A stretch of 64,000 nucleotides of DNA, taken from the IMG/VR virus record IMGVR_UViG_3300033489_000003, positions 1 through 64,000 of that record, one strand, 5' to 3'. Positions 1 to 54,556 of this stretch are shown here, in pieces. Position numbers and translations under genes: made by a program. The notes under the pieces are model-generated. The model was not told where the DNA came from, ran no database searches, and saw only the letters and a program-made list of their open reading frames with translations. Source of the DNA: a virus. The stretch's first letter is position 1. The number at the start of each line of letters is the position of its first letter.

Positions 1-291
1 ATGGACCAAGACGAAGAGCGCGCCGTTCAGATCCTGCATTCACTCGCGCACGTTCTCGGGTGGAGCGAGACCGCGCGGCTGATGAATCGACTGCAATGCG
101 AGACGAGGGGCCTGCGGGCGCCGAGAGCGATGGCGGAGCTGATCGCCGGTAAGAAACGGTTCAACGAAGCCTTGCGTGTGTTCATGGGTGAGCACGAGGA
201 TCTGCTGCGCACGCTGGAGGCGTTGGAGGTGAAGGCGGAAGGCGGCGTCGTCGCCGACGAGAAGAGCGCGGGCGTGGGGGAGAAGCGATGA
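1..291 (+). CDS. hypothetical phage protein (may start upstream of the window)
   Basis: ORF coupled by an ATGA overlap to the next ORF. Confidence 0.5.
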   Translation: MDQDEERAVQILHSLAHVLGWSETARLMNRLQCETRGLRAPRAMAELIAGKKRFNEALRVFMGEHEDLLRTLEALEVKAEGGVVADEKSAGVGEKR

Positions 292-503
292 CCGCCGCGC
301 CGCCGCCTGAACGTCTATCGGATGGCGAACTAGAGTTCGTCTCGGCCGACATCCAAACGATGGTGAAGCTGCTGGCCGATATGCCTGAGTGCAGGGTGTT
401 AGAGCGTCTCGGCTTCGTGTCGCGAATCGGTGCACAGCTTGGCAAGCTCATCGGGCACGTTGCCGCGGTCGAACTGGAGCTGGCGAAAGCGGAGAGGAAG
501 TAG
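288..503 (+). CDS. hypothetical phage protein
   Basis: 71-aa ORF, ATGA overlap with the upstream ORF. Confidence 0.55.
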   Translation: MTAAPPPERLSDGELEFVSADIQTMVKLLADMPECRVLERLGFVSRIGAQLGKLIGHVAAVELELAKAERK

Positions 504-557
504 GGAGAGATGTCGATTTGTGCATTGCGCGTATGGCGCGTGATGTTGGCAATGGTT

Positions 558-574
558 AACTGAAACGTTCAGTT
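558..574. promoter_or_regulatory. inverted repeat AACTGAA-ACG-TTCAGTT, possible operator
   Basis: Perfect 7-bp inverted repeat in the AT-richer intergenic region before the Cas7-like gene. Confidence 0.3.
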
Positions 575-620
575 CGTGGCATTACAAGTCTGGCCCAAAG
601 GGCAAGGAAGGGTAACGACA

Positions 621-1454
621 ATGGCATTCGGAAAGAAAACGCAGAGCAGTGAGAAGTTGGATCAGGCGACTGTGGCGATGAAGGCTTCCGAGGCGCTAAA
701 GAAGCGCCGAGCCGTCGGCGTTCAGTTGGCCATTAGAGTGGTCGGCACGTCGCCGCTCCTGATGCACCGCTGGACGACCAAGGCCATTATCCAGATGGTT
801 GGTAAAGCGGTAGGCCAGAGTCAGCCGAGAGGCGCCAAGGATCTCACGGAAGAATACGAGCAATCGTACCATCGTAACGAGAACGGCAAGGTCGCGATGC
901 CTTGTCGGATCGTGAAGGCAGCAACGATCGACGGCGCCATCGCAACCGAGGGCGCTGTCACCAAAGCGGATCTGAAGCGTTCGCTTCGTGTCGTCGGCTA
1001 TACGGCTCCGATCGTTACGAAGAAGCCGATGGAAATGGATTGCCGCATCGCTTCGAATAACGGCTCCCCAGACATGCGCGCCCGCGCCGTGATCCCGGCG
1101 GGATATCACTTCGATATCGTCGTCCAGTTTAACAGCCCGTTGACGCCTGACAAGGTGGTGGCGGCGCTCGAAGGAGCTGGCTCCTGCATAGGTCTGTGCG
1201 AAATGCGACCAGAGCGCGGCGGCGAGTACGGGACGTTCACGATCGAGATCCTGGGCAACGATCAGATTGCGCGCATCCTCAAAGAGAACTCCGTGCCCGA
1301 GGAGGAGTACAAGATTCCGCCTGAGTTCCTGCGGGCGTTCTCCATGGGCGAGGTCAAATCCGATGTGGCCGCCAAGGCGATGGCCGTCGCCGGTCACGTC
1401 AACGGTCAGGCGAATGGGAAGAAGACCAAAAAGCAAGCGGAGGTTGAGGCATGA
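621..1454 (+). CDS. stand-alone Cas7/RAMP-like RNA-binding protein (candidate effector of the GGY-NN array)
   Basis: N-terminal IRVVGTSPLLMH (RAMP beta1), MPCRIVKAA (P-x3-K helix) and C-terminal Gly-rich loop GAGSCIGLCEMRPERGGEYGTF; ATG 621 has a GGAAGG RBS. Confidence 0.8.
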   Translation: MAFGKKTQSSEKLDQATVAMKASEALKKRRAVGVQLAIRVVGTSPLLMHRWTTKAIIQMVGKAVGQSQPRGAKDLTEEYEQSYHRNENGKVAMPCRIVKAATIDGAIATEGAVTKADLKRSLRVVGYTAPIVTKKPMEMDCRIASNNGSPDMRARAVIPAGYHFDIVVQFNSPLTPDKVVAALEGAGSCIGLCEMRPERGGEYGTFTIEILGNDQIARILKENSVPEEEYKIPPEFLRAFSMGEVKSDVAAKAMAVAGHVNGQANGKKTKKQAEVEA

Positions 1455-2056
1455 AAAAACACATAACCAAGGCGTCGCCGCCGGCGCCGCCCATGGCCAA
1501 GAGATACGTCGCGTCAGGCTACTCGGAGGACGAAGCGCAGATCATCGGCGCGGAGCTAGCGCGCATCGCCAAGGCGAACAAGACGGACGTCGCGTCACTC
1601 GACAAGGAGCTCGTATTCGACCGAGTGGAGAAAACGCCCAATCACCCGCTACGCCAATTCTACGATTGGGACGACGCGAAGGCGGCACGCGCGCAACGCG
1701 TGACCGTCACTGGCAACATGATCCGGTGCATCCGCACGGTCGACATCGGGCAGCAAAACGGGAACCGAGACGAACAACGCCGCGTCCCGGAATTCATCTA
1801 CGTCCCAAATGGGTTGGTCAAGACCGATGGCAGCGTGACACGAAGCCGTGTGCTAACCGACGACGTCTTGGCGAACGATCCGATGTTTGCGAACGCGCTA
1901 GGTCACAAGATCCGGATGGTAAAGAATGCCGTCGGCGAGCTCGCGTGGCTCGCGCGCAGTCGCAACACATCTACCGAGGTCGCGGGACTGGTCCAAGACC
2001 TTGAGGCGGCGCTCAACGAATATCTGGCCAGCGTGGCGATCGCGGACGTTGGATGA
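1451..2056 (+). CDS. partner protein coupled to the Cas7-like gene, function unknown
   Basis: ATGA overlap; motif HPLRQFYDWDDAKAARAQR resembles a phage family I recall seeing beside such RAMP genes. Confidence 0.7.
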   Translation: MKKHITKASPPAPPMAKRYVASGYSEDEAQIIGAELARIAKANKTDVASLDKELVFDRVEKTPNHPLRQFYDWDDAKAARAQRVTVTGNMIRCIRTVDIGQQNGNRDEQRRVPEFIYVPNGLVKTDGSVTRSRVLTDDVLANDPMFANALGHKIRMVKNAVGELAWLARSRNTSTEVAGLVQDLEAALNEYLASVAIADVG

Positions 2057-2066
2057 AAGCAGACGG

Positions 2067-2517
2067 GGCAGGCAAGGTAGGGCCCGGCGGGGCATGGCTT
2101 GGCATGTTCAGGCGCGGCGTGGCAGGCAAGGCAGGCGCGGCCAGGCACGGTTCGGTTGGGCAAGGCTCGGTCCGGTATGGCATGGCAAGGCAGGCATGGT
2201 TCGGCGCGGCAGGGTGCGGCCCGGCTAGGTGCGGCTCGGCGCGACAGGGCAAGGCAGGCGTGGCACGGTTCGGCCCGGTGCGGCGGCGCTTGTCCGGGCA
2301 CGGCGAGGCTTGGCATGGTTGGGCGTGGCAGGCGCGGCTGGGCACGGTTAGGCACGGCGTGGCGTGGTTTGGTGCGGCATGGCAGGCGTGGCACGGCTGG
2401 GCAGGGCCCGGCGAGTCGCGTCCGGGCAGGTCTCGGTTTGGCGCGGCAGGCTAGGCTAGGCGCGGCCGGGTTCGGTTCGGCCTGGCGAGGTATGGCTGGT
2501 CGGGACAGGGCAGGCGT
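2067..2517 (+). repeat. GGY-NN pentamer array divided by GGCA tetramers (putative guide-RNA array)
   Basis: Manual parse: 83 pentamers, 74 starting GGC/GGT; GGCA delimiters at 2067, 2121, 2130, 2189, 2253, 2327, 2381, 2445, 2509. Confidence 0.93.
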
Positions 2518-2598
2518 GGAGTAGATGTTGAGATGGCTGTGCTAAAGAAGTAGGTATTCGCAGACGGCTCCGCGCTGGCGCGGGGCGGGAGTTAGTGG

Positions 2599-3165
2599 AT
2601 GGCAGCAATCGAGAACGTAAGAGGTACGGTCCGCTTTGACGAGATCGTGCCGCGTGAGTCGCCGGACTACTTCAACGTCGGTGACAGGTGCATGATCGAT
2701 CAGGTAGCCGAATGGATGGCCGACGAAGACGCCGTCGGCATGGTTGCGCCTGGCGGTGCCGTCAGAGACACGCTTCGGAGTCCGACGGCTACGCTGTGTC
2801 TTGATCGCGGCTGGCTCGGGTCGAAACGGGAACGCGCCGAGACGCTGCAAGCGCAGGCGAAGCGCGGCTGGAAAGTCACAGATGACGAGTGGCTAACCAT
2901 CCAGCGCGCCTTCGACTTCAGGTGCGTCTATTGCGAAGCCACGCCAAATCGTCTCACGCGCGATCACGTTAAGGCGCTCGCCGCTGGCGGCCGAAACGTG
3001 TGGCGCAACATCCTGCCAGCGTGCCGAAGCTGTAACTCGCGCAAGAACGTGAAGAGTCTGTCGCTTTGGTTCGGCGCTGAGCCGGCGAAGCTTGAAGGGT
3101 TGTTGGCGCGCGTCGCAGCGGGCAGGTCGAAGGCGGCAAGGCTTCGGAGGGAAGAGCGTACGTAG
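2599..3165 (+). CDS. HNH endonuclease
   Basis: CVYC...TRDHVKALAAGGRNVWRNILPACRSCNSRK. Confidence 0.82.
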   Translation: MAAIENVRGTVRFDEIVPRESPDYFNVGDRCMIDQVAEWMADEDAVGMVAPGGAVRDTLRSPTATLCLDRGWLGSKRERAETLQAQAKRGWKVTDDEWLTIQRAFDFRCVYCEATPNRLTRDHVKALAAGGRNVWRNILPACRSCNSRKNVKSLSLWFGAEPAKLEGLLARVAAGRSKAARLRREERT

Positions 3166-3219
3166 CTTATTCGGTTGTCTCAAATCGGTGACGCGCTGGT
3201 CGCGTAACTGGAGGTTCGG

Positions 3220-4098
3220 ATGGGTAATCGAGCAGCAAGAGAGAAAGCCGCGATCGAACAGTCCGCGGTTCACAGCGAAGAAGGCAAGAAGCGGCCGATG
3301 CGGCACCAAGCGCGCAGATTCCCAGGGCTGTACGCATCATGGGGCGGGTTGGACGCGGTCTTCTATTTTCGGTGGTGCGAGCTAGAGATGGGTTTCAGGA
3401 CTCACGGCATCGAGCCACAGGCTGAAACGATTGGGCAGCCACTTGTGGCGCTTTGGGACAATTTCGAGGCGCTGAAAGACCGCGCCAAGAGAGACCCGAA
3501 GCTGCTCAAGCTGGTGGACTACATCATGCGAACGACCGGAGGCGCGGCGGCTCGTCCTGGCAGTAGCCGCCAAACCAAGGGCTGCATGCAGCCTGACAAG
3601 ACAACGGACGATCAGCTAAGGGCGGTTCGCCGGTACAGGCGTGTGCACGCCGGAATGCTGCGTCTGAAGGCAGAGCACCCGACCCATTACGCCGTGTTGA
3701 ACGTAGTTTGCGTGCCTAGGCGATACGCGCCGGAGATCGAAACGAAGTGGGGGTACGAGCTCGCCGACCTGTGCATGCGGCTCGACCGAACCACGGGCGC
3801 CCACGCGACCGCGATGGCCAAGGAAGCCGAACACAAGCGGGTCACGCTGGAAACGTGGATTCTGCGGCGCATTGAAAAGAACGATAAGTTCATCGAACTG
3901 GCCAGAGAAGAAGCCGAGAAGATGGCGAGCGAGGCCATCCAGGCGTTCGAAGCCGTAACGGAGCTGCCGAAGGCGATGCGGGAAGCCGATGAGACGGCAG
4001 AGGAGGCGGATGCCGCCGCGCAGCCAAAGAAAAGAACGAGAGCACCAAAGGTGGTCAGTCTCGGCTATGACGACGAGCCCGGCGAGGAGGTCGCTTGA
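3220..4098 (+). CDS. hypothetical protein (position suggests a late-gene regulator)
   Basis: 292-aa ORF with GGAGG RBS, upstream of the packaging genes. Confidence 0.6.
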   Translation: MGNRAAREKAAIEQSAVHSEEGKKRPMRHQARRFPGLYASWGGLDAVFYFRWCELEMGFRTHGIEPQAETIGQPLVALWDNFEALKDRAKRDPKLLKLVDYIMRTTGGAAARPGSSRQTKGCMQPDKTTDDQLRAVRRYRRVHAGMLRLKAEHPTHYAVLNVVCVPRRYAPEIETKWGYELADLCMRLDRTTGAHATAMAKEAEHKRVTLETWILRRIEKNDKFIELAREEAEKMASEAIQAFEAVTELPKAMREADETAEEADAAAQPKKRTRAPKVVSLGYDDEPGEEVA

Positions 4099-5783: not shown

Positions 5784-6245
5784 GTGCCGGCAGGAGTACC
5801 TACATCAGAAGAGACGATTGCGGAGTTCCGCGCAGACTACGTTTGCAGCGGCAATCCTTCGAAATCTGCTCGCAAAGTCGGCATCTCCGAGCGTACCGGT
5901 AGGGAGATAGCGCAGCGTCTACAGCTGGACGCGTCCTTCGCCGAAGAGCGCCGCGTTCAACGCGCGAGATTCCTGGAGGAGGCGGTAGTTGCTCGCCACC
6001 GCGTACTCGAGAAGGCGCTGAAGCGGTTCTTGGCGAAGAGCGAAGTGCCGCAAGTCGTAGGCGAAGGCGCCAACGTCACCATCATCGACAAGCGGCCCGA
6101 CTACGGGAAGCTGGTGCTGGAGGCTGAGAAGAACGCGCACGCGTTGGCGCGGTTCGAGGCGGAGAAGAGCGGCGAGGTTCTAAACGCCAGGGACGTCAGA
6201 ATCACAGTGGTGGGGCCCGATGACCCTGCTAAACCAGAGTCATGA
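5784..6245 (+). CDS. putative terminase small subunit
   Basis: N-terminal HTH (PSKSARKVGISERTG); lies upstream of the large subunit. Confidence 0.55.
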   Translation: MPAGVPTSEETIAEFRADYVCSGNPSKSARKVGISERTGREIAQRLQLDASFAEERRVQRARFLEEAVVARHRVLEKALKRFLAKSEVPQVVGEGANVTIIDKRPDYGKLVLEAEKNAHALARFEAEKSGEVLNARDVRITVVGPDDPAKPES

Positions 6246-6886
6246 AACGCTGCACCGGCTGCGCTGCCGAGAAACCCGCGTCAGACTTCTATCGAGACAA
6301 GCAAAAGAAAGACGGCCTGTCGTCTCGATGCAAGCCTTGTAAGAACGCAGACAATCGCGCCCACTTCTTGGCTGATCCAACGGCAGCTCGGCGTGGCAAA
6401 CGCAAGTGGGCAAAGGCCAACCCGGGTCGTATGCGGGCCCTAGGTGACCGATGGCGAGCCGCTAACCCTGCCAAGGTCAAAGCCAGCTTTGCAAAGTGGG
6501 CAAAGGCCAACAAGCCCAAGATCGTCGAGTGGCGAGAGTCACACCGAGAGGTGTTTCGTAAAGCGGCCAAGAATTGGGCCGCTCGCCATCCGGAGAACGT
6601 TAAGGCGGCGTGTCGAAACCGTCGAGCCCGCATTGCCGGGTCATCGTCTCAACTCACTGCTTTCGATTGGGTCGGCAGATTGGACGAGTTCTGTGGTCTG
6701 TGCGCATATTGCCTGGTCGCAACTGACAGGCCGACGCAGGATCACTTTCGGCCGTTGTTCCGTGGCGGACAACACGACTGCGAAAACGTTGTTCCGGCGT
6801 GCGGCAGTTGCAACAGTTCCAAGCGCGACGGTTTAGTCTTTGACTGGGTCAGTCGCGGAGTCGGCGTCTGCCAACCGTCGACGTAG
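6242..6886 (+). CDS. HNH endonuclease with N-terminal Zn finger
   Basis: KRCTGC...CKPC; CAYC...DHFRPLFRGGQHDCENVVPACGSCNSSK. Confidence 0.85.
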   Translation: MKRCTGCAAEKPASDFYRDKQKKDGLSSRCKPCKNADNRAHFLADPTAARRGKRKWAKANPGRMRALGDRWRAANPAKVKASFAKWAKANKPKIVEWRESHREVFRKAAKNWAARHPENVKAACRNRRARIAGSSSQLTAFDWVGRLDEFCGLCAYCLVATDRPTQDHFRPLFRGGQHDCENVVPACGSCNSSKRDGLVFDWVSRGVGVCQPST

Positions 6887-8277
6887 GGGTCAAGTTCAAC
6901 CGTCCACAGCATCGCGCGTTCTGTGCGATGGGCGAGCGCCGGACCATCTTTCTCGGATGGGGAAGAGGGACTGGAAAGTCTCACTTTCTCCGCACCGTGT
7001 GTTGGCTACGCGTGGCGGAATGGGACGGGAAGCTTAGAACGAAGGCGCAGGAGCCGTTTCGCGGTGTTCGCATCGCATGGCTAATGCCGGCTCGAAAACA
7101 ATTTGTTGATGTCCACGGGGCCTCGATCCTTCAGGATCTTGAGCCAGGTGGAAAATACGGCTTTTTGGGCGGGAAGGTCAACCGCGCAACCTGGCATATC
7201 GATTTTCCTGGCGGGTCGACGTTGATGCCGTTCCCCGCGGCTGACGCGAACTCCAAGACCGCCAGAGGGATCCGTGCAGACATTTTGGTTGTCGACGAAG
7301 GCGACGACGTCGACACATCCGTCTACGATTCGGTGGCCATACCGTGGCTTAGCGCGCGGTGGTCGCTTGGCGAGGAACTAATCGCCGGCACGCCCACGCG
7401 TGGGCGTCACGGTCTGTGGTTTAGAACACTCAAGTGGGGCAGACTCGGCGAGCGCATTCGACGCGGCGAAGCCGTTCCGGATTTGTCTCCGGAAGAGACC
7501 AAGGCTTACGCCAGCATCTATCCGTTTCTGGCGACATACGTTGATACGCCTGAGACGGTTGACCCTGTTGCCGTGGCGAAAGCCAAGGCAACAACGCCGC
7601 CGTCGATATTCAAGCGAGAGTGGCTCGCCGATCCAGATTCCGCAGAGGGGCTTGTTTTTGGCGACGTCTTCGTCGAGAGCTTTCATGTCCGTTCACCGCC
7701 GCAAGACGTCACGTGGACAGAGATTCTCATCGGGTGCGACCACGGCACCGAGGACCCAGGGTGCTTGCTTCTCGTCGGCGTGATTGGCCACGGGAACGAC
7801 GCCACCGCTTGGGTGATTGACGAAGTCTACGAGAGCCACCGCCTTGAGGGCTGGTGGACCCAGCAGCTCAAGCGCTGGACCGGTTGGTACCCCAACCACC
7901 GATTCTACGGCGACCCGTCGAGACCCGGCACCGTTGAAGCCTATCGGCTCAATGCCGGCGCGCGCGTGCAGGAGGTCGACAACTCGATCGAGGACGGCAT
8001 CAACGCCGTTGCGGATCGCTTCGTCATTCGCGAGCGTGAGGACGGCTCGCGGTTCGCTCGCCTCTACGTCTCGCCGAAGTGTGTGAACCTGATCGCTGAG
8101 CTCGGCAAGTATCGCCGCAAAGCGGACCCGCGCGACAAGGACCGCTACCTCGAAGACATTCTCGACCGCTGGAACCATTCGATCGACGCCCTGCGCTACT
8201 GCCTGTTTAACCGATTCGATCCACGGTCCAGGGCGGGAAAGCGCAACACGAGAAGCCTCGAAGAACGCAGCTCCTAG
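6868..8277 (+). CDS. terL: terminase large subunit (probable CTG start)
   Basis: Walker A GRGTGKS, Walker B ILVVDE, coupling motif GTP, nuclease IGCDHG and NHSIDALRY. Confidence 0.9.
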   Translation: MPTVDVGVKFNRPQHRAFCAMGERRTIFLGWGRGTGKSHFLRTVCWLRVAEWDGKLRTKAQEPFRGVRIAWLMPARKQFVDVHGASILQDLEPGGKYGFLGGKVNRATWHIDFPGGSTLMPFPAADANSKTARGIRADILVVDEGDDVDTSVYDSVAIPWLSARWSLGEELIAGTPTRGRHGLWFRTLKWGRLGERIRRGEAVPDLSPEETKAYASIYPFLATYVDTPETVDPVAVAKAKATTPPSIFKREWLADPDSAEGLVFGDVFVESFHVRSPPQDVTWTEILIGCDHGTEDPGCLLLVGVIGHGNDATAWVIDEVYESHRLEGWWTQQLKRWTGWYPNHRFYGDPSRPGTVEAYRLNAGARVQEVDNSIEDGINAVADRFVIREREDGSRFARLYVSPKCVNLIAELGKYRRKADPRDKDRYLEDILDRWNHSIDALRYCLFNRFDPRSRAGKRNTRSLEERSS

Positions 8278-26586: not shown

Positions 26587-28133
26587 TGGCAGACATCGAC
26601 GAATTCTACTCGCCCACGGTGGACGATCTAATAAACGCAAATCTGCGCGTTACGCGAAATGCGCTCATCCTGCGCGGCGTAGAGAACCCGAACGTGACTC
26701 GCGACAGCGACCATTACGTGCGAGCCCGCGCACTCGCGTTGAACCTTGTTCCCGCGTACCGGAACGGCGTCATCATGGGCGATCAGATGATGCCAGACAC
26801 CGCCACGGGCGAGCGGCTGGTGCGGCACCTGAAGATCTACGGTCTGACGCCTCTCACTGCGGCCGGCGCTAGCGGAAACATCATCCTGACGACGAGCACG
26901 ACGACGCTCGTCCCGGTCGACTCGCAGCTCATCGACGACGTTGGCCAGGTCTACCGGGTCACGGTCGGCGGCAATTACGACGACGGCGACGAGATCCCTG
27001 TCATTGGCGTCTCGACCGGCAAGTCGACAGACCACGACGAAGACGACATCCTGCAATGGGTCGACCAGCCGGCATTCGCGGATCCGCTTGCCGCGGTGGC
27101 GTCGCCTGGGCTCATCGGCGGCGCCGACACGGACGAGGACGAAGACAGCAGATCGCTGCTCTACACGCACCTTCGCAATCCGGCCGGCGGCGGCAATTGG
27201 TCGCAAATCATCGCGTGGGCGAAAGCTGCAAGCTCGAGCGTGAAGGCGGCGTTCGTTTACCCGGCGCTCGACGGCCCCGCGACCGTGGGCCTGAACTTGC
27301 TAGGGGAGCTCACGTACGACGTCGTCAACGGGTTCACGCGCGAGGTGTCGGCGACCGTGCGCACGCTTGTGCATGCTGCCGTTGCGGCGCAGCTCAATGC
27401 GCGCGGACACGTCAACCTGACGACGACGACGCCAACGGACTCTGGAGCAACGCCGAATGTAAACCTATCGGTGTCGATAGGGCTAGATCTGCCAGAATCA
27501 ACCGGCGCCGGCGGACCAGGCGGCGGATGGGTTGACGTGCGGCCATGGCCGATCCTTAACGGCGTAGCGACGCGGTGCACGGTCCTGTCGGTGACCGACT
27601 CGACGCACTTGATACTCACGTCGGACGAGGCTGGCACGACGCCAAGCGCCGACGGTCTCCAGGACGGCGTCACACAAATCGCTTGGTTCTCGCCAGTCTC
27701 GTACTCCGATGGAAACGCGGCCATCATCACGGCGACCGTGACGGCGCACGGCGGCACGACCGGCGCCATCACCGTTACGCTGTCGGCGCCATTCACTGGC
27801 ATCATCGCGGGCGACTACGTGTTTCCCAACGCGGAGAATCACGAAGTCTACGCGCAAGCGCTGCTGACGGCGATCGGCGACCTCGGTCCTGGGCAGTGGC
27901 ATCCCAATCTCGCGCTCGTGCCCGAAGCGGCGCGGCAGCCGCTCGTCAACCGACAACAGCCGAGCGACATCACGGGCTCGCTTCTCAAGCCGATCGTCGA
28001 CTCGGGCGAAGAGGTTGAGGACGCCCAGTACCTATACCGCTCGGCGACCACGCCCGGCGTTCCGGCAACGACAGCGGATAGCCCGTTCGTGTTCGTGCCA
28101 TCCAGGCTCGGGTTTTTCGACCGCATTCCCTAG
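26586..28133 (+). CDS. baseplate J/Mu gp47-like protein
   Basis: QMMPDTATG, GGADTDEDE...PAGGGN, AFVYPA...GPATV. Confidence 0.85.
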   Translation: MADIDEFYSPTVDDLINANLRVTRNALILRGVENPNVTRDSDHYVRARALALNLVPAYRNGVIMGDQMMPDTATGERLVRHLKIYGLTPLTAAGASGNIILTTSTTTLVPVDSQLIDDVGQVYRVTVGGNYDDGDEIPVIGVSTGKSTDHDEDDILQWVDQPAFADPLAAVASPGLIGGADTDEDEDSRSLLYTHLRNPAGGGNWSQIIAWAKAASSSVKAAFVYPALDGPATVGLNLLGELTYDVVNGFTREVSATVRTLVHAAVAAQLNARGHVNLTTTTPTDSGATPNVNLSVSIGLDLPESTGAGGPGGGWVDVRPWPILNGVATRCTVLSVTDSTHLILTSDEAGTTPSADGLQDGVTQIAWFSPVSYSDGNAAIITATVTAHGGTTGAITVTLSAPFTGIIAGDYVFPNAENHEVYAQALLTAIGDLGPGQWHPNLALVPEAARQPLVNRQQPSDITGSLLKPIVDSGEEVEDAQYLYRSATTPGVPATTADSPFVFVPSRLGFFDRIP

Positions 28134-28141
28134 GACCACAA

Positions 28142-28639
28142 ATGAGTTTGCCCGACGAAGCCACGCTCTCCGACACGTACGGGGGGCCGTACACGAACGA
28201 GCGCCCCGTCGAAGACCCGACGACGGAGATCGACGCTGATGCCGCTAGCGAGCTGATGAGCGATACCGCTGGGTGCACGCGGATGATCGCGCGAGCGTGG
28301 GTCAAGTTCAACGGGCTCACGTACACGTCCGGCACGCAGTCGATTCCGGTAAGCGACCATAACGCGACGTGGGGCGGATCTGCCGGCGTCATTCCTGTCG
28401 TCACGCAATCGGCCGCCGGCATCTACCTCATCACGTGGCCGGCGACCGTGACGGACGAGATCCTCGTCCTCCGAACGCTCAACATTCGCTACCCGCACGT
28501 GCCGAGCACGATCGACACAGCGCTTAGCAGCGGCAAGGTGTCGGCGTTTACAGCGAACACGATGACAGTCCGCACGTTCAACGCCGCTGGCGCCGCCGAC
28601 GCGCTCAACGCGATCCCTATCTTCTGTTCGTGGACATGA
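28142..28639 (+). CDS. hypothetical baseplate/tail protein
   Basis: RBS and synteny. Confidence 0.6.
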   Translation: MSLPDEATLSDTYGGPYTNERPVEDPTTEIDADAASELMSDTAGCTRMIARAWVKFNGLTYTSGTQSIPVSDHNATWGGSAGVIPVVTQSAAGIYLITWPATVTDEILVLRTLNIRYPHVPSTIDTALSSGKVSAFTANTMTVRTFNAAGAADALNAIPIFCSWT

Positions 28640-29323
28640 ATGGGCTTCGGCGGTCTTAACCCATTCCCGTTTCGATTCGGCGGCGGACCGTCGAATCAAC
28701 TGGTCATCTACCGATCTCTCAACGAGGGGCTCGGGACGGCGTTCGATACGACCGACGAGAGCACCGTCACGGCGGAGACGTCGGCGGACGCCCGCGCCAT
28801 CGCCGCCGTGTGGAGCGCAAACGCGCGTCTCGCCAACCAGATGGATCCGGCGAAGATGACGGATTTCCTGGGCCGGTGGGAAGACATCTTTGATCTTCGC
28901 CCGCATCGCAACGACTCTGACAACGCGCGCCGCGCCGTCGTGGCGCTCAAGTTTCTTGCGCTCAGCGCATCTCTCTACGGAACCATCGAGGAAGTGGCGG
29001 CCGCCATTATGGGCAGCGCGTATATCGATGTCCTGTATGCCGACCTCGTCACGGGCCATTCAAGTTGGCCAGGTGGCACTCCATCCGAGCCGACGATGTG
29101 GACGTCAAGCATCGCGCACGTACTCGTGCGTGTGGTTCGCTACGACGCGATCGTCGGCATGACGCAGCACGAGTTTTTTGATCGGCTGCGCCAATTGAAG
29201 TTCTTCCTGCGCGATTACATGGCGGCGTGGACCACTCTTGACTGGGCGTGGGACGGTAGTGGCGGACCAGGGTTCTATCTCGATGAGGACGGCAATCTCG
29301 ATGGTGAGTACTTCGACTCCTAG
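28640..29323 (+). CDS. baseplate protein (Mu gp48/DUF2313-like)
   Basis: DPAKMTDFLGRWEDIFDL...RRAVV. Confidence 0.65.
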   Translation: MGFGGLNPFPFRFGGGPSNQLVIYRSLNEGLGTAFDTTDESTVTAETSADARAIAAVWSANARLANQMDPAKMTDFLGRWEDIFDLRPHRNDSDNARRAVVALKFLALSASLYGTIEEVAAAIMGSAYIDVLYADLVTGHSSWPGGTPSEPTMWTSSIAHVLVRVVRYDAIVGMTQHEFFDRLRQLKFFLRDYMAAWTTLDWAWDGSGGPGFYLDEDGNLDGEYFDS

Positions 29324-49432: not shown

Positions 49433-50152
49433 TTACCGCAACCGACGCAGCTCGACCGCGTAGTATCGCCGTTCCCACTCCGCCCGCCCATGTCCGTCGC
49501 CGCGCCGCCCGCCTAGCGAAGCAACGCGAATGCGCGTCGCGTCTAGCTGCCCACCGAGCGAGCACGCGTAGGCCGGATGGATCGGCAGGTCGTGCTCGAC
49601 GAGATACGCGAACACGTCGAGCCCGGACCACCACCCGATGGGCGCGCACGTGGACGCGCTGGACTCGCCGTATGCGCGCATCCGCGCCTTGCGTTGCCCG
49701 CTCTCGTCGGCGCGTACGCCGCTCACGTGAGCAGCGCCGAAGCGTTGCGCCGCTTCAGCGAAGCCACGCTCAAGCGTGCCCGTAGCATGCCAGCCGTCTT
49801 CGTCGCGGATGCACTGGCTCACGATCTCGTGATAGTTTGAGCTCGGGTACGTTTGAAAAAAAGCGTCTCGCACGAGCGAGCAATCAGGGTTGCAGATAGG
49901 CTCAACGCGGATCCAAACGACAGGCACCTCCGCCGCAAGCCCGGACACCATGTGAGCGATCACGACCGAGTCCTTCCCCCAACTGACACCCGCGTAGCAT
50001 CGCGTCCTAGCTACGAATTCGGCGACAGCCGCGCGCGCCCTATCTACGTGACGACGGTAGAGCGACAACGACGCGTGGGCTCGCGCTGTCCTCTCAACTA
50101 TCTCCCACGCCGCAAGGTCATCTGGCGTGTGCCGCGGTGACGCAATCAGCAC
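49433..50152 (-). CDS. cysH: CysH/PAPS-reductase-like protein of type IV-B loci
   Basis: GVSWGKDS PP-loop; GVRADES..R; PIGWWSGLDVFAYL...LPIHPAY. Confidence 0.85.
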   Translation of the reverse strand: MLIASPRHTPDDLAAWEIVERTARAHASLSLYRRHVDRARAAVAEFVARTRCYAGVSWGKDSVVIAHMVSGLAAEVPVVWIRVEPICNPDCSLVRDAFFQTYPSSNYHEIVSQCIRDEDGWHATGTLERGFAEAAQRFGAAHVSGVRADESGQRKARMRAYGESSASTCAPIGWWSGLDVFAYLVEHDLPIHPAYACSLGGQLDATRIRVASLGGRRGDGHGRAEWERRYYAVELRRLR

Positions 50153-50613
50153 GGTCGCCACGCACCGAAAACGCTCTCGGCTAGCCTTTCGTGTTTGCGC
50201 CATTCGCCAAACCCAAACCGCTGCATCTCGTCCCACGTGGCAGATCGTGTCCAGCCTGTGTGAAGTCGATGGGCGGCGACAACGGCGCCTGTCCTATGCG
50301 ACCCTTTCCAACAATGCACGAGCGTTCCACGCACAAGAAGCGATAGCACGTTGAGCGCTGGTAATCCCAGATGCTCATCGATCGGAAATCGAACGTACTC
50401 AACGCCAAGCTTTGCGTAGGTGCTTGAGGCCAGCAGTTGGCGAGGATTGTCTCTGAGGTCGACGACGCGACGGATTGCGTTATGAGTCAATGCCAGCTTC
50501 AATTCTCCGGCGGAATACTTTCCGGATCGGAACAGCCCGCGGTCGAATTCTGCGAACCTGCGCAAGCTCGTCAGCCCGGCACCGCGCAAAGCTGCTCTCG
50601 CGAATGCATCCAA
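50146..50613 (-). CDS. tyrosine/dual-specificity phosphatase-like protein (start uncertain)
   Basis: LFRSG, VVDLR and P-loop HCWKGSHRTG. Confidence 0.8.
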   Translation of the reverse strand: MDAFARAALRGAGLTSLRRFAEFDRGLFRSGKYSAGELKLALTHNAIRRVVDLRDNPRQLLASSTYAKLGVEYVRFPIDEHLGLPALNVLSLLVRGTLVHCWKGSHRTGAVVAAHRLHTGWTRSATWDEMQRFGFGEWRKHERLAESVFGAWRPC

Positions 50614-51218
50614 TACGGAAACGTGATCGTTGCATACGCGAGCGGAGGATCCTCTAAACCTGGCCAGTCCGCCGGCAACGCGCGCAGTGGCTTACCATCT
50701 CGGACGACTGGAAACCCGTCTCCCCACGACTCATACGGGTCCACGGCCCACTCGCGAACCCTTCCGCGCCCGGTTGAACGCTTGTGCCCAAGGTAGCGAA
50801 CGAGAGTGAGCAGATCGCGAATGGCGTCAGCGTCACCCATGGCGAACCACTCAACCTCGTCGCGCTCTGCCCACGCTACTTCGCTCGGCAAGCGGTACGA
50901 CTTCGTTGGCCCTGCCGATAACAGAATCCGTCTGAACTTCGTTGCGCCCATTGCCTGCGCTTCGGCAAGCGGGAACTTGCGGTTGACGTATCGCAGCTCG
51001 TGCTGGTCGAATTTAGGCGTAGCGAACGAGCACAGGTGAAACCTACCGCAGGGCTCCTTCGTAACCGGGATCTCGATGTCGGCGAGTTCGCCGAATCCTG
51101 GCGGTGGCAGTTGATCGCGCTGTGCCACGGCCCACGCGAGCAGACCATCTAGGCGTAACGACCCGTCCCGTAGCGAGATGGGGCCATCTAGCCGCGCCGT
51201 GATTCGAAGCGGAGTCAC
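50571..51218 (-). CDS. csf3: Csf3 (Cas5-like RAMP)
   Basis: PLRITARL...LDGLLA; LGHKRSTGRGRV..W. Confidence 0.85.
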   Translation of the reverse strand: MTPLRITARLDGPISLRDGSLRLDGLLAWAVAQRDQLPPPGFGELADIEIPVTKEPCGRFHLCSFATPKFDQHELRYVNRKFPLAEAQAMGATKFRRILLSAGPTKSYRLPSEVAWAERDEVEWFAMGDADAIRDLLTLVRYLGHKRSTGRGRVREWAVDPYESWGDGFPVVRDGKPLRALPADWPGLEDPPLAYATITFPYWMHSREQLCAVPG

Positions 51219-52198
51219 GCATTCACCGTAGCGAGAAACTCTTTGATGCGCGCCGCCCTGGCTTGAACGTGCGACCTGAACATGGTCCCAGTCTTCGCGG
51301 CAAGATCCGTCGTGTCCATGGGGTGTAGCCTATCAGCCGGCGCACTTACGGCAACGCCCTTGGCCATAATGGCGCGGAGTAGCCCATGCCCTGTTCCTCG
51401 CTTTCCGCCGACGCGCGCGTTGGCAAGCATTGCTGCCACCGTAGTGGAGAAAACGTCGACATCGAGATCGTTGTAGAGCGTGGCCTCGACTCCCCAAGAG
51501 AAAAGCGAGCCTGACGCGACGCGTTCGAACGTGCGGGGCAACATCGTACTCTTCGTTGCCTCCCGCGCCGTTGCGATGTCGGTATCGTGCGCGGCTTCGC
51601 TCTGCAAGAGTCGGTTCTCCGCATCGGAAGCGGCGCCAGCAGATAGGAGCTTACGCTTGCCTGGGTCGAGCGTTGGGTCCATGCGCACGCGCTGCTCTAG
51701 TTCCATGTGCGCGCGTGACGTGTCGAACTGACCTACGTGATCAACGATCCACTTTGGCAAAAGGTGCTTTGACTCCGCGCAAACCAGCAACGCGTCCTCC
51801 ACGACGAGTCGCCCAGGGATGACGCGATTGCCTGCGCACCCGCCCAGCAGCGACAGGGACGGCACGAGATCACACATCTCTCGATAGGTGTCGAGTTTGA
51901 TGGTGCTGGCGTCACCACGTCCAGTGATCATTCCGCCAGCAAAGAGAAGGCGGAGAGCGGCCTCCGACAGCGACGGGTCGGCCAGCAGCCCAGCGGCGTC
52001 GAGAAACGCGTACGCGATGGCCTCACGGCAAGCGTGGCGCATCGTGTCCGACGTCACGCACGCCACTTGCGCCCACGCACCATCAGGCATGCGGATCTTG
52101 CGACGGAACGCGACGGCGCTGTTCCCGTGCACTTCAGAGTGGTGCGCTATTGGCGTTGCCGCCTCCAGCAAAAACTCAAACCGTTTGATCTCGTGCAT
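51215..52198 (-). CDS. csf2: Csf2 (Cas7-like RAMP)
   Basis: ATPIAH, MRHACR, LFAGG, PSLSLLGG, VGGKRGTGHG; AAGGAGG RBS. Confidence 0.88.
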   Translation of the reverse strand: MHEIKRFEFLLEAATPIAHHSEVHGNSAVAFRRKIRMPDGAWAQVACVTSDTMRHACREAIAYAFLDAAGLLADPSLSEAALRLLFAGGMITGRGDASTIKLDTYREMCDLVPSLSLLGGCAGNRVIPGRLVVEDALLVCAESKHLLPKWIVDHVGQFDTSRAHMELEQRVRMDPTLDPGKRKLLSAGAASDAENRLLQSEAAHDTDIATAREATKSTMLPRTFERVASGSLFSWGVEATLYNDLDVDVFSTTVAAMLANARVGGKRGTGHGLLRAIMAKGVAVSAPADRLHPMDTTDLAAKTGTMFRSHVQARAARIKEFLATVNA

Positions 52199-52559
52199 CT
52201 CTAGCCTCCTTACGTTCTTCGGCAATCTTTCTAGTCAAAACCAACAGGAACGCGTATTCCCGCTCGATAAGGTCCAGCCACTCACTTGCGCACCCGCGCT
52301 CGTGCACGAGGTGCGTCAGTTGGAGTAATGATGTCGAATAGCGAACACTGGGCGCCGACAGTTGGAGCTGTCTTGCGATCATCGTCGCCCACTCCTCCGG
52401 ACCCGACGACATCCGCGCCGCCGCTCTCATTCTGTCCTGCAACTGCTCCCAATGTTTCAGCACGTTCACGTGCGGCGTCGACAGGTATGCCGCTCGGATC
52501 TCGAGCAGCACGTCTACCGTCGCGCTTCGGAGTTGCTCCTTCACCTTTTCTTCTATCAC
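52176..52559 (-). CDS. Cas11-like small subunit
   Basis: 127-aa helical protein with WEQLQDRMRAAA; AAGGAGG RBS; between csf1 and csf2. Confidence 0.68.
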   Translation of the reverse strand: MIEEKVKEQLRSATVDVLLEIRAAYLSTPHVNVLKHWEQLQDRMRAAARMSSGPEEWATMIARQLQLSAPSVRYSTSLLQLTHLVHERGCASEWLDLIEREYAFLLVLTRKIAEERKEARDARDQTV

Positions 52560-53286
52560 GCTGAGCCTCCTTCTTTGCGGCCCGCGCCGCCTTCTCTTCT
52601 TCCATTCGTTTGGCGACCGTTTCTTCATCTCGTTGCGCCAGCCATAGCGCGAGCGCGAACCACGGCGAGCGGCGCTTGTCCGACCAGTTCTCCTCGAAAC
52701 GGCGAATCTCTTCGGCGCACCGTTGGTATGAGCCCTGTCCGTACTCACCGCGCTCCACTTCTTCTTTCGTCGCGCCAGCCGTAAGCAACGTCGTCATTCG
52801 ATCGACAAGCGTCCACCCGGACGCATGATCGATCGGAATCGTTACGAGCGTCTCCTCGAACATGATGGCGCCTCGCCGTGTATTTGGCGGGTTCACTGGC
52901 GTCCAAGGAATCACGTGTTTTTGGCCGCTGTCAGCAATAGCTGCGAACCACGGCCCCTCTTTCGGCGCACGCAGCCACGCGCGCATCTCCGGCTTGTTTC
53001 CCTTGTTGAACTTGAGCACGCATCGATCATCTACGAGCCACGAATACATGCGCATCGTATCCGGCGGTCGGCCGGCCATCACGTGGACGCATGAAGCGCA
53101 AACATGTGCGCTGGACGGCGACCGAACGCGTGACTGACCGACGAACGTACTGCCTAGCCACCGCTCCACCGGAACACCGAACACGCTCGATCCGGCGCAG
53201 ACCCAGCAATGTTCAGCGGCATGCTCTACAGCGTCGGCGACCTTCGCCCCGCCGAGACGGTCGCTCAAAAGTTGAGAGGCCATCAT
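52282..53286 (-). CDS. csf1: Csf1 (Cas8-like large subunit)
   Basis: CWVC...VCASC Zn finger; GQKHVIPWTPVN. Confidence 0.8.
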   Translation of the reverse strand: MMASQLLSDRLGGAKVADAVEHAAEHCWVCAGSSVFGVPVERWLGSTFVGQSRVRSPSSAHVCASCVHVMAGRPPDTMRMYSWLVDDRCVLKFNKGNKPEMRAWLRAPKEGPWFAAIADSGQKHVIPWTPVNPPNTRRGAIMFEETLVTIPIDHASGWTLVDRMTTLLTAGATKEEVERGEYGQGSYQRCAEEIRRFEENWSDKRRSPWFALALWLAQRDEETVAKRMEEEKAARAAKKEAQRDRRKGEGATPKRDGRRAARDPSGIPVDAARERAETLGAVAGQNESGGADVVGSGGVGDDDRKTAPTVGAQCSLFDIITPTDAPRARARVRK

Positions 53287-54230
53287 CACAGCATCATGTC
53301 CGTTATTATGACACGACCGCACCCGAATGCCGTTCTGCCTCCGAATCCAATCCTAGCCGCCGCCTCGAGCAGCCACCGCGAAACCGCGTTCACCTCAAGC
53401 ACGAGCGATCCGCTCCACCCACGCACGGGCCCATACTTACCACCGAATGGTATCGTTTCCGGATGCGTGTCCTGTGACACGATCTCAACGCAGATCCTCT
53501 TGGCGACATAGCGCGCCCACTCCTCTGACGGGGCGAGTCGTCGAACGAACTCAACACCGATCGCGCTTGCTATGTTGACGGCGCCAGGTCGAACGCATTC
53601 CGACGCACCACCGCCCGAGCGAATGACGATCGGAGTGATGGCGTCGAGCCGAACCAGCTGCCGCCCGCGCCTTTGGATCGCAGGTGATCGAAAGCGCCAC
53701 GCCGGTCCAAACGTTAGCGTAGTCGGCCGGTCGAACAACGGAACGTGTACCGACTTTCCTGCTAGCTTCATTCCTTCCTGTCTGAACCAGTGTACTCCCC
53801 ATCCGGATCCATGCGGGACGAGAGAGAAGTTTGGAATACGCGGCACGTGGCCGGCGCCGAGTACAGCCGTAAGCGCGCCATGAAGAGCGGGCGAGTTTCT
53901 TAGTTCGATGGGCCAACGCGGCAACGGTGAATAGTGCACCGTCATGGCGCATCCCGGAAGGTGGACATGGTATGGAGGAGCGCCGGCAAGCCAATGGTTT
54001 TGGCGCGTGCAGTTTCTGTTCCTCCTCGCCCACGCTTCGCACCGAAGCCTTACGGCAAGCGTTTCGCCAATCGGTCGGCGTCGCTCTCTAGTCTGTTCGC
54101 GAGCGCTGTCTAGCGTGCGTTTGCGTTTGCTCCTACAGGCTTCAGAGCACGTCGCCGCGTTCGCGCACAGTTTCCGGAACGTTGACCCGCATTGAACGCA
54201 CCAAGCTTGCCTTATTGAGGACAACGGCAT
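53286..54230 (-). CDS. Cas6-like RAMP with N-terminal Zn finger
   Basis: LHGAL, ITPIVIR, GWSGSL and C-terminal GFGGRTAFGCGRV G-loop; N-terminal CVQC...CSEAC. Confidence 0.78.
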   Translation of the reverse strand: MPLSSIRQAWCVQCGSTFRKLCANAATCSEACRSKRKRTLDSAREQTRERRRPIGETLAVRLRCEAWARRNRNCTRQNHWLAGAPPYHVHLPGCAMTVHYSPLPRWPIELRNSPALHGALTAVLGAGHVPRIPNFSLVPHGSGWGVHWFRQEGMKLAGKSVHVPLFDRPTTLTFGPAWRFRSPAIQRRGRQLVRLDAITPIVIRSGGGASECVRPGAVNIASAIGVEFVRRLAPSEEWARYVAKRICVEIVSQDTHPETIPFGGKYGPVRGWSGSLVLEVNAVSRWLLEAAARIGFGGRTAFGCGRVIITDMML

Positions 54231-54232
54231 TG

Positions 54233-54529
54233 CTACTCTCTCCTCCTGTAACGCTCAACACATCTAACGCAGCTCGGCACGTTGGCGCTCGTCACCGTGT
54301 GCGCCGGCTTGCTGCAAAAATAGCATTCGAAGATTCCACGCTGCTTACGTGTGCCGTCGAGTTGTTCGCCAGTCTCCGGCTTGCGCCGCGGCGTCGCAGC
54401 TTGCTGCGTGATTGACACCGGTTCGTTGGCGTTATCCCAAACGAGCATGCCCACCGGAAACATCACCCCGACCTCCCGCATGTCGGACACCGCGCGATCA
54501 ATCCCATCAGCCGCGCGTGCGTTTTGCAC
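54233..54529 (-). CDS. hypothetical Zn-finger protein
   Basis: CYFC...CVRC; start uncertain. Confidence 0.45.
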   Translation of the reverse strand: MQNARAADGIDRAVSDMREVGVMFPVGMLVWDNANEPVSITQQAATPRRKPETGEQLDGTRKQRGIFECYFCSKPAHTVTSANVPSCVRCVERYRRRE

Positions 54530-54556
54530 GGAACGCGCGGTTGCGTGACAACTCCT

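What the first reader, a model, noticed from the sequence alone, without database searches (positions are those of the whole stretch)
2067..2517. Array grammar: seven guide-sized units delimited by GGCA, with information only in the NN positions
Manual parse gives GGCA delimiters at 2067, 2121, 2130, 2189, 2253, 2327, 2381, 2445 and 2509. Units hold 10, 11, 12, 14, 10, 12 and 12 pentamers, plus two singletons. 74 of 83 pentamers start with GGY, and the 9 exceptions (GTT, GTC, GAC, CGC) keep the 5-nt phase. NN strings differ in every unit: U1 AA AG CC GG AT TT AT CA GC GT; U2 GC CA AC TC TG AA TC CC AT AT AA; U3 AT TC GC AG GC CC TA GC TC GC AG AA; U4 GT AC TC CC GC GG TT CG AC GA TT AT TG GT; U5 GC TG AC TA AC GT GT TT GC AT; U6 GT AC TG AG CC GA GC CG AG TC TT GC; U7 TA TA GC CG TC TC CT GA AT TG GG AG. 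Slippage would homogenise a microsatellite, and a period of 5 does not fit codons. Inference: GGCA marks processing or filament boundaries. If every third target base is skipped (NNx), recognition could ignore codon wobble positions.
Basis: partly seen in the sequence, partly recalled or inferred. Interest (0 to 1): 0.92.

Follow-up and report, generated by a model that had tools for sequence, protein, structure and literature searches.

The report
Phage VIPR guide-RNA array, staggered type
The run of five-base GGY-NN repeats broken by four-base GGCA steps is the guide-RNA array of a phage VIPR system, a CRISPR-related RNA-guided DNA-silencing device first described in 2026 preprints. It is real and was read well, but it is a new example of a known kind, and I could not find its targets.

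Summary
Window 2067-2517 holds 83 in-phase pentamers, 74 of them GGY-NN, cut by nine GGCA 4-mers into units of 10, 1, 11, 12, 14, 10, 12 and 12.

The two genes just upstream make it a VIPR locus (bioRxiv 10.64898/2026.04.26.720920 and .720927):
- Gene 621-1454 is a Vipr homologue. Its family profile hits PDB 36pp 'SUSP1 Vipr protein' at E 4e-10, and its model matches Csm3/Cas7.
- Gene 1451-2056 is a partner found beside vipr in 70 of 76 related loci.

The same grammar recurs in 61 of 76 vipr loci, including Cluster F mycobacteriophages: 87 arrays, all on the vipr strand, and none in about 365 kb of control phage DNA. The GGCA step fits the 1-nt-overlap 'staggered array' of that paper's fig. 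S18.

I found no targets. There is no self-target, and exact 9-dinucleotide seeds for six guides in IMG/VR gave only chance-level hits.

Local differences from the SUSP1 reference:
- no 3' tails on the guides;
- an accessory protein unrelated to vap1;
- Met in place of the G2-stacking Trp.

This scan has already found staggered VIPR arrays in other genomes. Verdict: new member of a known kind.

The parts
621..1454 (+). vipr gene: a lone Cas7-like RAMP protein of 277 aa counted from the conserved MAFGKK start. The ORF listing extends it to a GTG at 576.
   Evidence: A profile of 22 homologues (A1) hits PDB 36pp 'SUSP1 Vipr protein' at E 4.1e-10 over 194 of 202 residues. The same profile finds the SUSP1 vipr gene in KT454805.2. 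The AlphaFold model (pLDDT 80) matches Csm3/Cas7 chains in Foldseek at E 1e-7, prob 1.0. The SUSP1 GGY-contact residues align to H64, R170, E209 and R211 in 292-aa numbering; W178 aligns to M210.
1451..2056 (+). vipr-accessory (vap-like) gene, 201 aa, overlapping the vipr stop. Helical, with the conserved motif HPL..F.WDD..AA. Function unknown.
   Evidence: A homologue lies on the same strand beside vipr in 70 of 76 loci. It is 83% identical to its counterpart in the nearest relative L093. It matches phrog_15946 and BobaPhett gp53. No Pfam or NCBIfam family matched. The only fold matches are generic helical hairpins. There is no similarity to SUSP1 vap1 (hhalign prob 0.09).
2067..2517 (+). vrRNA array of the staggered type: nine GGCA 4-nt steps and 83 pentamers. 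It starts 10 nt after the vap stop codon.
2071..2120 (+). Guide unit 1, 10 pentamers. NN: AA AG CC GG AT TT AT CA GC GT.
2121..2129 (+). Single-pentamer unit (GGCA GGCAA) between two steps. Probably a duplicated boundary, not a guide.
   Evidence: AAGGCAGGC is the common boundary context in related arrays.
2134..2188 (+). Guide unit 2, 11 pentamers, all canonical GGY.
2193..2252 (+). Guide unit 3, 12 pentamers, one degenerate (GACAG).
2257..2326 (+). Guide unit 4, 14 pentamers, two degenerate in the middle (CGCTT, GTCCG).
2331..2380 (+). Guide unit 5, 10 pentamers, all canonical.
2385..2444 (+). Guide unit 6, 12 pentamers, three with GTC in place of GGY.
2449..2508 (+). Guide unit 7, 12 pentamers, the last two degenerate (GTCGG, GACAG).
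2599..3165 (+). HNH endonuclease gene next to the array. It is a neighbour and is not shown to belong to the system.
   Evidence: Pfam HNH and HNH_5. No homologue lies beside vipr in the other 75 loci. Two further HNH genes lie elsewhere in the phage, one directly before the large terminase gene.

Best explanation
Window 621-2517 is a complete VIPR (Viral Interference Programmable Repeat) locus of a temperate 104.6-kb myovirus, laid out as vipr, a vap-like gene, then a staggered array of seven vrRNA guides.

Shown here:
- the pentamer grammar and its GGCA steps;
- homology of the protein to SUSP1 Vipr, including the residues that hold G1, G2 and Y3;
- the conserved partner gene;
- the strict link between such arrays and vipr genes, always on the same strand.

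Taken from the VIPR papers by homology:
- The array is transcribed with the operon.
- One Vipr protomer binds each GGY-NN repeat and flips out the GGY, so the NN pairs are presented.
- Each 10-14-subunit filament binds double-stranded DNA whose sequence reads NN-x-NN-x, skipping every third base.
- Binding silences transcription, most likely of a competing phage, prophage or satellite.

My inference: the 4-nt GGCA step breaks the 5-nt register, so filaments cannot run on from one unit into the next. That break would set the guide length, and host RNases would trim at the junction.
For: Grammar and uniqueness.

Vipr homology: the A1 profile hits PDB 36pp 'SUSP1 Vipr protein' at E 4.1e-10 and finds the SUSP1 vipr gene. 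The contact residues H17, R138, D177 and R179 align to H, R, E and R (numbering from the paper read). Foldseek gives Csm3/Cas7.

Module conservation:
- 71 IMG/VR loci, 2 Actinomycetota genomes, 2 mycobacteriophages and 1 metagenome contig carry vipr.
- 70 of 76 have the partner gene.
- 61 of 76 have a strict array. All 87 arrays lie on the vipr strand, none on the opposite strand, and none in about 365 kb of other phage DNA.

Shared punctuation: of 221 4-nt steps in related arrays, 202 are GGCA, and runs between steps peak at 9-11 pentamers. This lies within the published 9-16 repeats per vrRNA and fits the 1-nt-overlap staggered layout.

Guide turnover: in the nearest relative, vap is 83% identical but the first guides differ.

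No self-targeting: the best match in the phage's own genome is at most 73% of NN bases, equal to shuffled guides. The paper reports the same for its systems.

Weak support for the wobble-skip reading: NN composition tracks codon positions 1-2, with r 0.51 (sense) for all loci and 0.62 (antisense) for the window.
Against: - I found no target.
- Nine of 83 pentamers depart from GGY. Guides 4, 6 and 7 carry two or three such units, which the SUSP1 protein may not tolerate.
- The residue equivalent to the G2-stacking W178 is Met in this protein, while most relatives keep Trp.
- The guides have no 3' tail, unlike the studied type II system.
- The accessory protein shows no similarity to vap1.
- No promoter or terminator consensus was found around the array.
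- Expression, processing and binding were not tested. The paper does not report small-RNA data for staggered arrays.
Confidence: 0.93

Rival explanations
1. The locus is a VIPR locus, but this array is partly decayed or serves another role, for example as a decoy or sponge for a rival's Vipr, or with only the fully canonical units 2 and 5 active. The seven 'guides' would then not all be working guides.
For: Nine degenerate pentamers are concentrated in units 4, 6 and 7. No targets were found for any unit. The closest clade members G001 and G002 have far more degenerate arrays. Redirecting vrRNAs are described in 10.64898/2026.10.15.759431.
Against: The paper notes frequent internal degeneracy in real vrRNAs. 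All units keep exact 5-nt phase and lengths of 10-14. GG conservation next to the boundaries is high in related arrays. The array sits beside an intact vipr gene.
Confidence: 0.1
2. The tract is translated into a Gly/Ala/Arg-rich repeat peptide (ORFs 2053-2454 or 2099-2524). The ATG at 2053 overlaps the vap stop codon.
For: Two open frames of 133 and 141 aa cross the array. Annotators have called such genes, for example BobaPhett gp51 and the N-terminal extension of P0016.
Against: - GGY-NN tracts are poor in stop codons in every frame.
- GGY conformity is the same in all three codon phases: 28/29, 23/28 and 22/25.
- The 4-nt steps shift the repeat against any reading frame.
- The translated tract matches the nearest relative at 10 of 46 residues, while the flanking vap is 83% identical.
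- No Pfam or PHROG family matched.
- The arrays follow vipr, not any frame.
Confidence: 0.02
3. The tract is a DNA-level element: a packaging (pac/cos) site, a replication origin, a G-quadruplex or R-loop tract, or a decaying microsatellite.
For: It lies upstream of the HNH, small-terminase-like and large terminase genes. It has strong G skew and GG every 5 nt.
Against: - In mycobacteriophages the same array lies in the early region beside vipr, far from the packaging genes.
- Across 76 loci the arrays track vipr and its strand.
- Slippage does not explain variable NN with fixed GGY, nor a shared GGCA step in 202 of 221 cases.
Confidence: 0.03

Closest known systems
VIPR systems with 'staggered' vrRNA arrays (bioRxiv 10.64898/2026.04.26.720920, Results and fig. 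S18 legend)
   Same: A lone Vipr RAMP gene, one accessory gene and tandem GGY-NN repeats. Adjacent vrRNAs abut with a 1-nt overlap, which in DNA reads as a GGCA 4-mer followed by GGY. The system is phage-borne.
   Different: Nothing essential that I can see. The paper's type tables and figures are not held here, so I could not assign one of its seven types. The paper does not report small-RNA confirmation for this layout.
Type II VIPR of Escherichia phage SUSP1 (KT454805.2: vipr 28474-29061, vap1 28031-28471; PDB 36pp) and of the Pseudomonas fulva prophage
   Same: Homologous Vipr with conserved H, R, D/E and R contacts to GGY. Same gene order, vipr then accessory gene then guides. Guides of 10-14 repeats against about 12 in SUSP1.
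   Different: - SUSP1 guides are separate roughly 100-nt genes, each ending in a conserved tail with a pseudoknot. Here the guides abut with no tails.
- The accessory protein is unrelated to vap1.
- Vipr here is 277 aa with a C-terminal helical extension of about 60 residues, against 195 aa in SUSP1.
- Trp178 is Met here.
- The triplet is mostly GGC here and mostly GGT in SUSP1.
Cluster F mycobacteriophages (Cheoctovirus, e.g. BobaPhett gp52/gp53, Brocalys gp45/gp46)
   Same: Same three-part module and the same GGC-NN plus GGCA grammar.
   Different: The array lies upstream of vipr, not downstream of the accessory gene. The proteins are only about 30% identical. The hosts are actinobacteria. 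The records annotate the genes as hypothetical proteins.
Class 1 CRISPR-Cas backbone proteins (Csm3/Cmr4/Cas7) with crRNA
   Same: RRM core, G-rich loop and thumb. The protein polymerises along a guide and flips bases out at a fixed period (papers read).
   Different: - The period is 5 nt with three bases sequestered, not 6 nt with one flipped.
- There are no CRISPR repeats and no cas1, cas2, cas5, cas6 or large subunit at this locus.
- The guide is written inside the repeat units, not between them.

Membership tests
VIPR system | A Vipr protein: a minimal RAMP (RRM core, G-loop, thumb) homologous to the described Vipr | tested here: met
   The A1 profile hits PDB 36pp SUSP1 Vipr at E 4.1e-10 and 42 bits, covering residues 3-196 of 202. 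It also finds the SUSP1 gene in its genome at E 3.9e-12. Foldseek gives Csm3/Cas7 at E 1e-7.
VIPR system | Residues that hold the GGY triplet (SUSP1 H17, R138, D177, W178, R179) | tested here: met
   In the HMMER alignment they align to H, R, E, M and R in the window protein. Four of five are kept or conservatively replaced. W178 is Met here and in P0002, and Trp in most relatives. The effect of the Met is unknown.
VIPR system | vrRNA made of tandem GGY-NN pentamers, 9-16 per guide, with variable NN | tested here: met
   Seven units of 10-14 pentamers, 74 of 83 GGY, and different NN strings in every unit.
VIPR system | The array lies beside vipr on the same strand | tested here: met
   The array starts 613 nt downstream of the vipr stop and 10 nt after the vap stop. 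In 61 of 76 related loci the arrays flank vipr, with 87 of 87 on its strand.
VIPR system | One accessory (vap) gene in the operon | tested here: met
   A conserved partner is present in 70 of 76 loci. I could not tell which of vap1-6 it is, if any.
VIPR system | Guides match natural targets under the 1-nt skip rule, above controls | tested here: inconclusive
   Exact 9-NN seeds for six guides in IMG/VR gave 8, 1, 0, 0, 0 and 0 seed hits, and none extended above chance. The full 22-base pattern of unit 2 gave no hit in metagenomes. Two related phage genomes scored no better than shuffled guides. No mismatch-tolerant scan of a large collection was possible.
VIPR system | No self-targeting of the carrier genome | tested here: met
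   The best NN match in the 104.6-kb genome is 14/20 to 18/28 under every skip rule, equal to shuffled guides.
VIPR system | vrRNAs are expressed, processed and bound by Vipr; the complex binds DNA and represses | not testable with these tools
   This needs small-RNA sequencing, pull-down and reporter assays.
VIPR staggered array (fig. S18) | Adjacent vrRNAs share one nucleotide, so the 5-nt register steps back by 1 at each boundary | tested here: met
   Nine GGCA 4-mers are each followed by GGY, and all intervals between them are multiples of 5. In related arrays 202 of 221 steps are GGCA. This holds at the sequence level only.
Type II VIPR (SUSP1 / P. fulva) | A vap1 accessory gene | tested here: not met
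   hhalign of the partner-family profile A2 against SUSP1 vap1 gives probability 0.09.
Type II VIPR (SUSP1 / P. fulva) | Each vrRNA ends in a conserved 3' tail with a pseudoknot | tested here: not met
   The units abut directly. The 85 nt after the array show no significant fold (z -0.99) and no tail shared with related loci. SUSP1 tails are visible.
CRISPR-Cas (class 1) | A CRISPR repeat-spacer array and further cas genes next to the Cas7-like gene | tested here: not met
   Tandem Repeats Finder shows no repeat-spacer array in the window. The neighbours are the vap-like gene, an HNH gene and phage genes. A separate type IV-like gene set lies 47 kb away.

The most novel reading that the evidence does not exclude
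The staggered layout may represent a distinct route of guide biogenesis. With no tail, ribozyme or Cas6, the 4-nt GGCA step, helped by the purine-biased last dinucleotide, would break the register. Vipr filaments would then measure out 10-14-repeat guides themselves, and host RNases would cut between them. This would be paired with an accessory family (phrog_15946, motif HPL..F.WDD..AA) that is not vap1 and has no recognisable fold. The preprints describe the layout but report no small-RNA data for it, so the mechanism is open.
Probability: 0.3. Interest if true: 0.5.

Novelty: new member of a known kind. Interest (0 to 1): 0.3.

Why it matters
VIPR is a new class of RNA-guided DNA binder and is proposed as the ancestor of CRISPR RAMPs.

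This locus adds a clean, compact example of about 1.9 kb: vipr, one accessory gene and seven abutting guides. It sits in an uncultured 104.6-kb temperate myovirus that also carries a TnpB and type IV-like csf genes.

The survey made for it shows three further things:
- The staggered GGC-NN/GGCA form is common in IMG/VR phages.
- It is present, unannotated, in cultured Cluster F mycobacteriophages, where it could be tested at the bench.
- It has its own conserved accessory family.

The finding does not change what is known about the mechanism.

Tried and rejected
Tools and searches that gave nothing
- Rfam scan of 1500-3200: no family.
- Promoter and terminator consensus scan of 1-3400: nothing around the array.
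- Fold of the 106 nt after the array: not better than shuffles.
- Accessory protein: no Pfam or NCBIfam family, no Foldseek match in the PDB, and only generic helical-hairpin matches in the wide structural search (Z up to 7.6 on residues 141-201).

Host and relatives
- The genome-contig scan with the Vipr profile returned only two distant actinobacterial loci.
- A tail-sheath search against cultured phages found only hits at about 25% identity.
- No tRNAs were found. The host stays unknown.

Target searches
- Own genome, skip rules 0-3, against shuffled guides: no signal.
- 281 guides from related loci against this genome: no excess for skip 1.
- All guides against all fetched loci: one 16/16 hit and two 20/22 hits under skip 1, against none in shuffled guides. 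The 16/16 hit has about 0.09 expected by chance, and its skipped base falls on codon position 1. I treat this as unproven.
- IMG/VR seeds for unit 3: eight hits, all reading the peptide AYGALA on the opposite strand. They lie in unrelated genes and match 18-21 of 24 bases, which is chance level. None has a homologue in this phage.
- IMG/VR seed for unit 5: one hit at 18/20 in a 41%-GC contig, which is chance level.
- Whole genomes of two clade relatives: nothing above shuffles.

HNH gene: I considered the gene at 2599-3165 as a nuclease-type vap. I rejected it as unsupported, because no HNH lies beside vipr in the other loci.

No complex-prediction job was run.

Full report
**1. The observation**

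GGCA lies at all nine stated positions, and every interval between them is an exact multiple of five. Between the first and last GGCA there are 82 pentamers, 73 of them GGC or GGT. The nine exceptions (five GTC, two GAC, one GTT, one CGC) keep the phase. Positions 4 and 5 use all four bases.

The tract is the only period-5 segment in the window and in the whole 104,643-nt virus record to which the window belongs. Shuffled genomes give about one short run of four or more GGYNN units. The real genome has eight, all inside the tract.

**2. What surrounds it**

The tract begins 10 nt after the stop codon of a 201-aa ORF (1451-2056). That ORF overlaps the end of a 277-aa ORF (621-1454). An HNH gene follows at 2599.

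A permissive blastn of the first 8 kb against cultured phages hit only the tract itself, in Cluster F mycobacteriophages and three Gordonia phages. BobaPhett and Brocalys carry the same GGC-NN pentamers with the same GGCA steps. The two genes just downstream of their arrays are homologues of the two genes upstream of this one. The unit is therefore a three-part module: array, protein A and protein B.

**3. How general the module is**

Protein A has at least 46 relatives in the large protein collection. A profile of 22 of them (A1) retrieved 71 IMG/VR loci, two actinobacterial genome loci and one close metagenome contig.

Across the 76 vipr loci examined:
- 70 have a protein B homologue on the same strand next to protein A.
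- 61 have a strict GGY-NN array. All 87 arrays lie on the strand of protein A, and none on the other strand.

In a parse of 89 arrays I counted 2,439 pentamers (78% GGC, 12% GGT) and 221 four-base steps. Of those steps 202 are GGCA, and runs between steps peak at 9-11 pentamers.

**4. What protein A is**

Its AlphaFold model (pLDDT 80) matches Csm3 and other Cas7 chains in Foldseek at E about 1e-7. At that point my reading was a lone Cas7-like protein with its own periodic RNA.

A look-up of this scan's earlier notes then gave the name VIPR and a preprint identifier. I read the papers myself. They describe Viral Interference Programmable Repeat systems with these features:
- a minimal RAMP protein (Vipr), one accessory gene (vap), and vrRNAs of 9-16 GGY-NN repeats;
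- one protomer bound per repeat, with GGY sequestered and NN exposed;
- double-stranded DNA targets read as NN-x-NN-x, with the skipped base mostly on codon wobble positions;
- a role in silencing rival phages, prophages and satellites.

They also list 'staggered arrays with overlapping vrRNAs', in which one vrRNA ends where the next starts with a 1-nt overlap (fig. S18 legend). In DNA that reads as a GGCA 4-mer followed by GGY.

**5. Membership tests**

- The A1 profile hits PDB 36pp, 'SUSP1 Vipr protein', at E 4.1e-10 over nearly its whole length. It also finds the vipr gene in the SUSP1 genome.
- In that alignment the SUSP1 residues that hold the triplet (H17, R138, D177, R179) align to H, R, E and R in the window protein. 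W178, which stacks on the second G, aligns to Met here and to Trp in most relatives.
- Unit lengths of 10-14 lie inside the published 9-16.
- There is no self-target in the carrier genome, as the paper reports for its systems.
- The record is a phage: large terminase, major head protein, tail sheath, tape measure and a serine integrase.

These results place the locus in VIPR.

It is not type II. The accessory family shows no similarity to SUSP1 vap1. The guides have no 3' tails, whereas SUSP1's tails are plain in its sequence. I could not assign one of the paper's seven types, because its figures and tables are not held here.

**6. Rival readings**

*Translated repeat peptide.* Two ORFs cross the tract, but this reading fails on three counts:
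- GGY conformity is equal in all three codon phases.
- The translated tract matches the nearest relative at only 10 of 46 residues, while the flanking accessory protein is 83% identical.
- No protein family matches.

*Packaging site, origin, G-quadruplex or microsatellite.* These do not explain why arrays follow vipr and its strand in phages where the module sits far from the packaging genes.

*Partly decayed array.* This remains possible. Nine pentamers are degenerate, mostly in units 4, 6 and 7. The closest clade members have much more degenerate arrays lying between vipr and the accessory gene.

**7. Targets**

I followed the paper's scoring, the fraction of NN bases matched in an ungapped NN-x window, with shuffled-guide controls.
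- Own genome: best matches equal the shuffles under skip rules 0-3.
- Guides from related loci against this genome: no excess for skip 1.
- All guides against all fetched loci: a slight excess of near-perfect skip-1 hits. None involves the window's guides beyond a chance-level seed hit, and the single perfect hit has its skipped base on codon position 1.
- Public collections could be scanned only for exact patterns. Seeds of nine dinucleotides for units 2-7 in IMG/VR gave eight hits for unit 3, one for unit 5 and none for the others. Extensions were at chance level.
- The full pattern of unit 2 found nothing in the metagenome collection.
- Two whole genomes of clade relatives scored no better than shuffles.

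The target question is open and is not answered in the negative.

Two indirect points fit the guide reading:
- The nearest relative (88% identical Vipr) has the same gene order but different first guides.
- NN composition correlates with codon positions 1-2 and not with the other two registers. This is a weak statistic.

**8.

The dinucleotide before each GGCA is not free. Its first base is a purine in 8 of 8 cases here. Across 295 boundaries in related loci it is A or G in 84% and C in 1%. GG conservation is highest next to the boundaries. The 9-nt 'unit' at 2121-2129 looks like a duplicated boundary, not a guide.

**9. Verdict**

The system was published in 2026 and has been catalogued independently. 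This scan has already identified staggered VIPR arrays in other genomes. It is a new member of a known kind.

What remains open:
- how staggered arrays are processed;
- what the accessory family does;
- what these seven guides target.

Noticed in passing
L009 2975-3224 (Mycobacterium phage BobaPhett, NC_051636.1) and L010 3003-3233 (Brocalys, NC_031262.1): Cultured Cluster F mycobacteriophages (Cheoctovirus) and three Gordonia phages carry the same staggered VIPR module. The array comes first, followed by a vipr homologue (BobaPhett gp52) and the accessory homologue (gp53). All are annotated as hypothetical proteins. The BobaPhett gp51 CDS lies wholly inside the array and is probably a spurious gene call.
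   Followed up: partly
window 49433-55750, minus strand: The same phage has ORFs with sub-threshold NCBIfam matches to type IV Csf1 (E 1e-13) and Csf2 (E 2e-6), plus a cysH-like protein. It also has a TnpB that scores 297 bits against the guided_TnpB model (cut-off 100). One phage therefore carries up to three RNA-guided modules.
   Followed up: partly
L011 4450-4870 and L012 4400-5350 (IMG/VR relatives, Vipr 51-54% identical): In the closest clade members the array lies between vipr and the accessory gene. It keeps conserved AAGGCAGGCACGG-like boundaries every 50-90 nt, but most interior pentamers lack GGY. These may be decayed arrays or a different repeat consensus. L011 also has an 82-aa ORF between vipr and the array, whose fold I did not test.
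   Followed up: partly
window 2116-2508; 295 boundaries in L009-L081: The last dinucleotide before each GGCA step is biased towards purine then A/T (GT, AA, AA, AA, GT, AT, GC, AG in the window). This suggests that the boundary signal is longer than GGCA.
   Followed up: yes
protein P0016 (370 aa) in alignment A1: A database gene call for a Vipr homologue carries an 85-residue Gly/Ala/Arg-rich N-terminal extension. This is a read-through of an upstream pentamer array, so such arrays cause mis-annotated starts.
   Followed up: no
L020 3096 guide against L045 2454-2477: An 8-repeat guide of one IMG/VR phage matches a 682-aa ORF of another VIPR-bearing phage at 16 of 16 NN bases under the 1-nt skip rule. 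About 0.09 such hits are expected by chance, and the skipped base falls on codon position 1, not on the wobble position.
   Followed up: partly
window 2599-3165, 6242-6886, and G000 about 92206-92334: The phage has three HNH endonuclease genes. One follows the array and one lies directly before the large terminase gene (6928-8277). The first has a weak domain-level match to the HNH of IscB/Cas9d.
   Followed up: partly
window 59409-60878, minus strand: A large serine recombinase (phrog_95 integrase, E 2e-77) indicates a temperate lifestyle. No close cultured relative was found (tail sheath about 25% identical to Mu-like phages), no tRNAs were found, and the host is unknown.
   Followed up: partly
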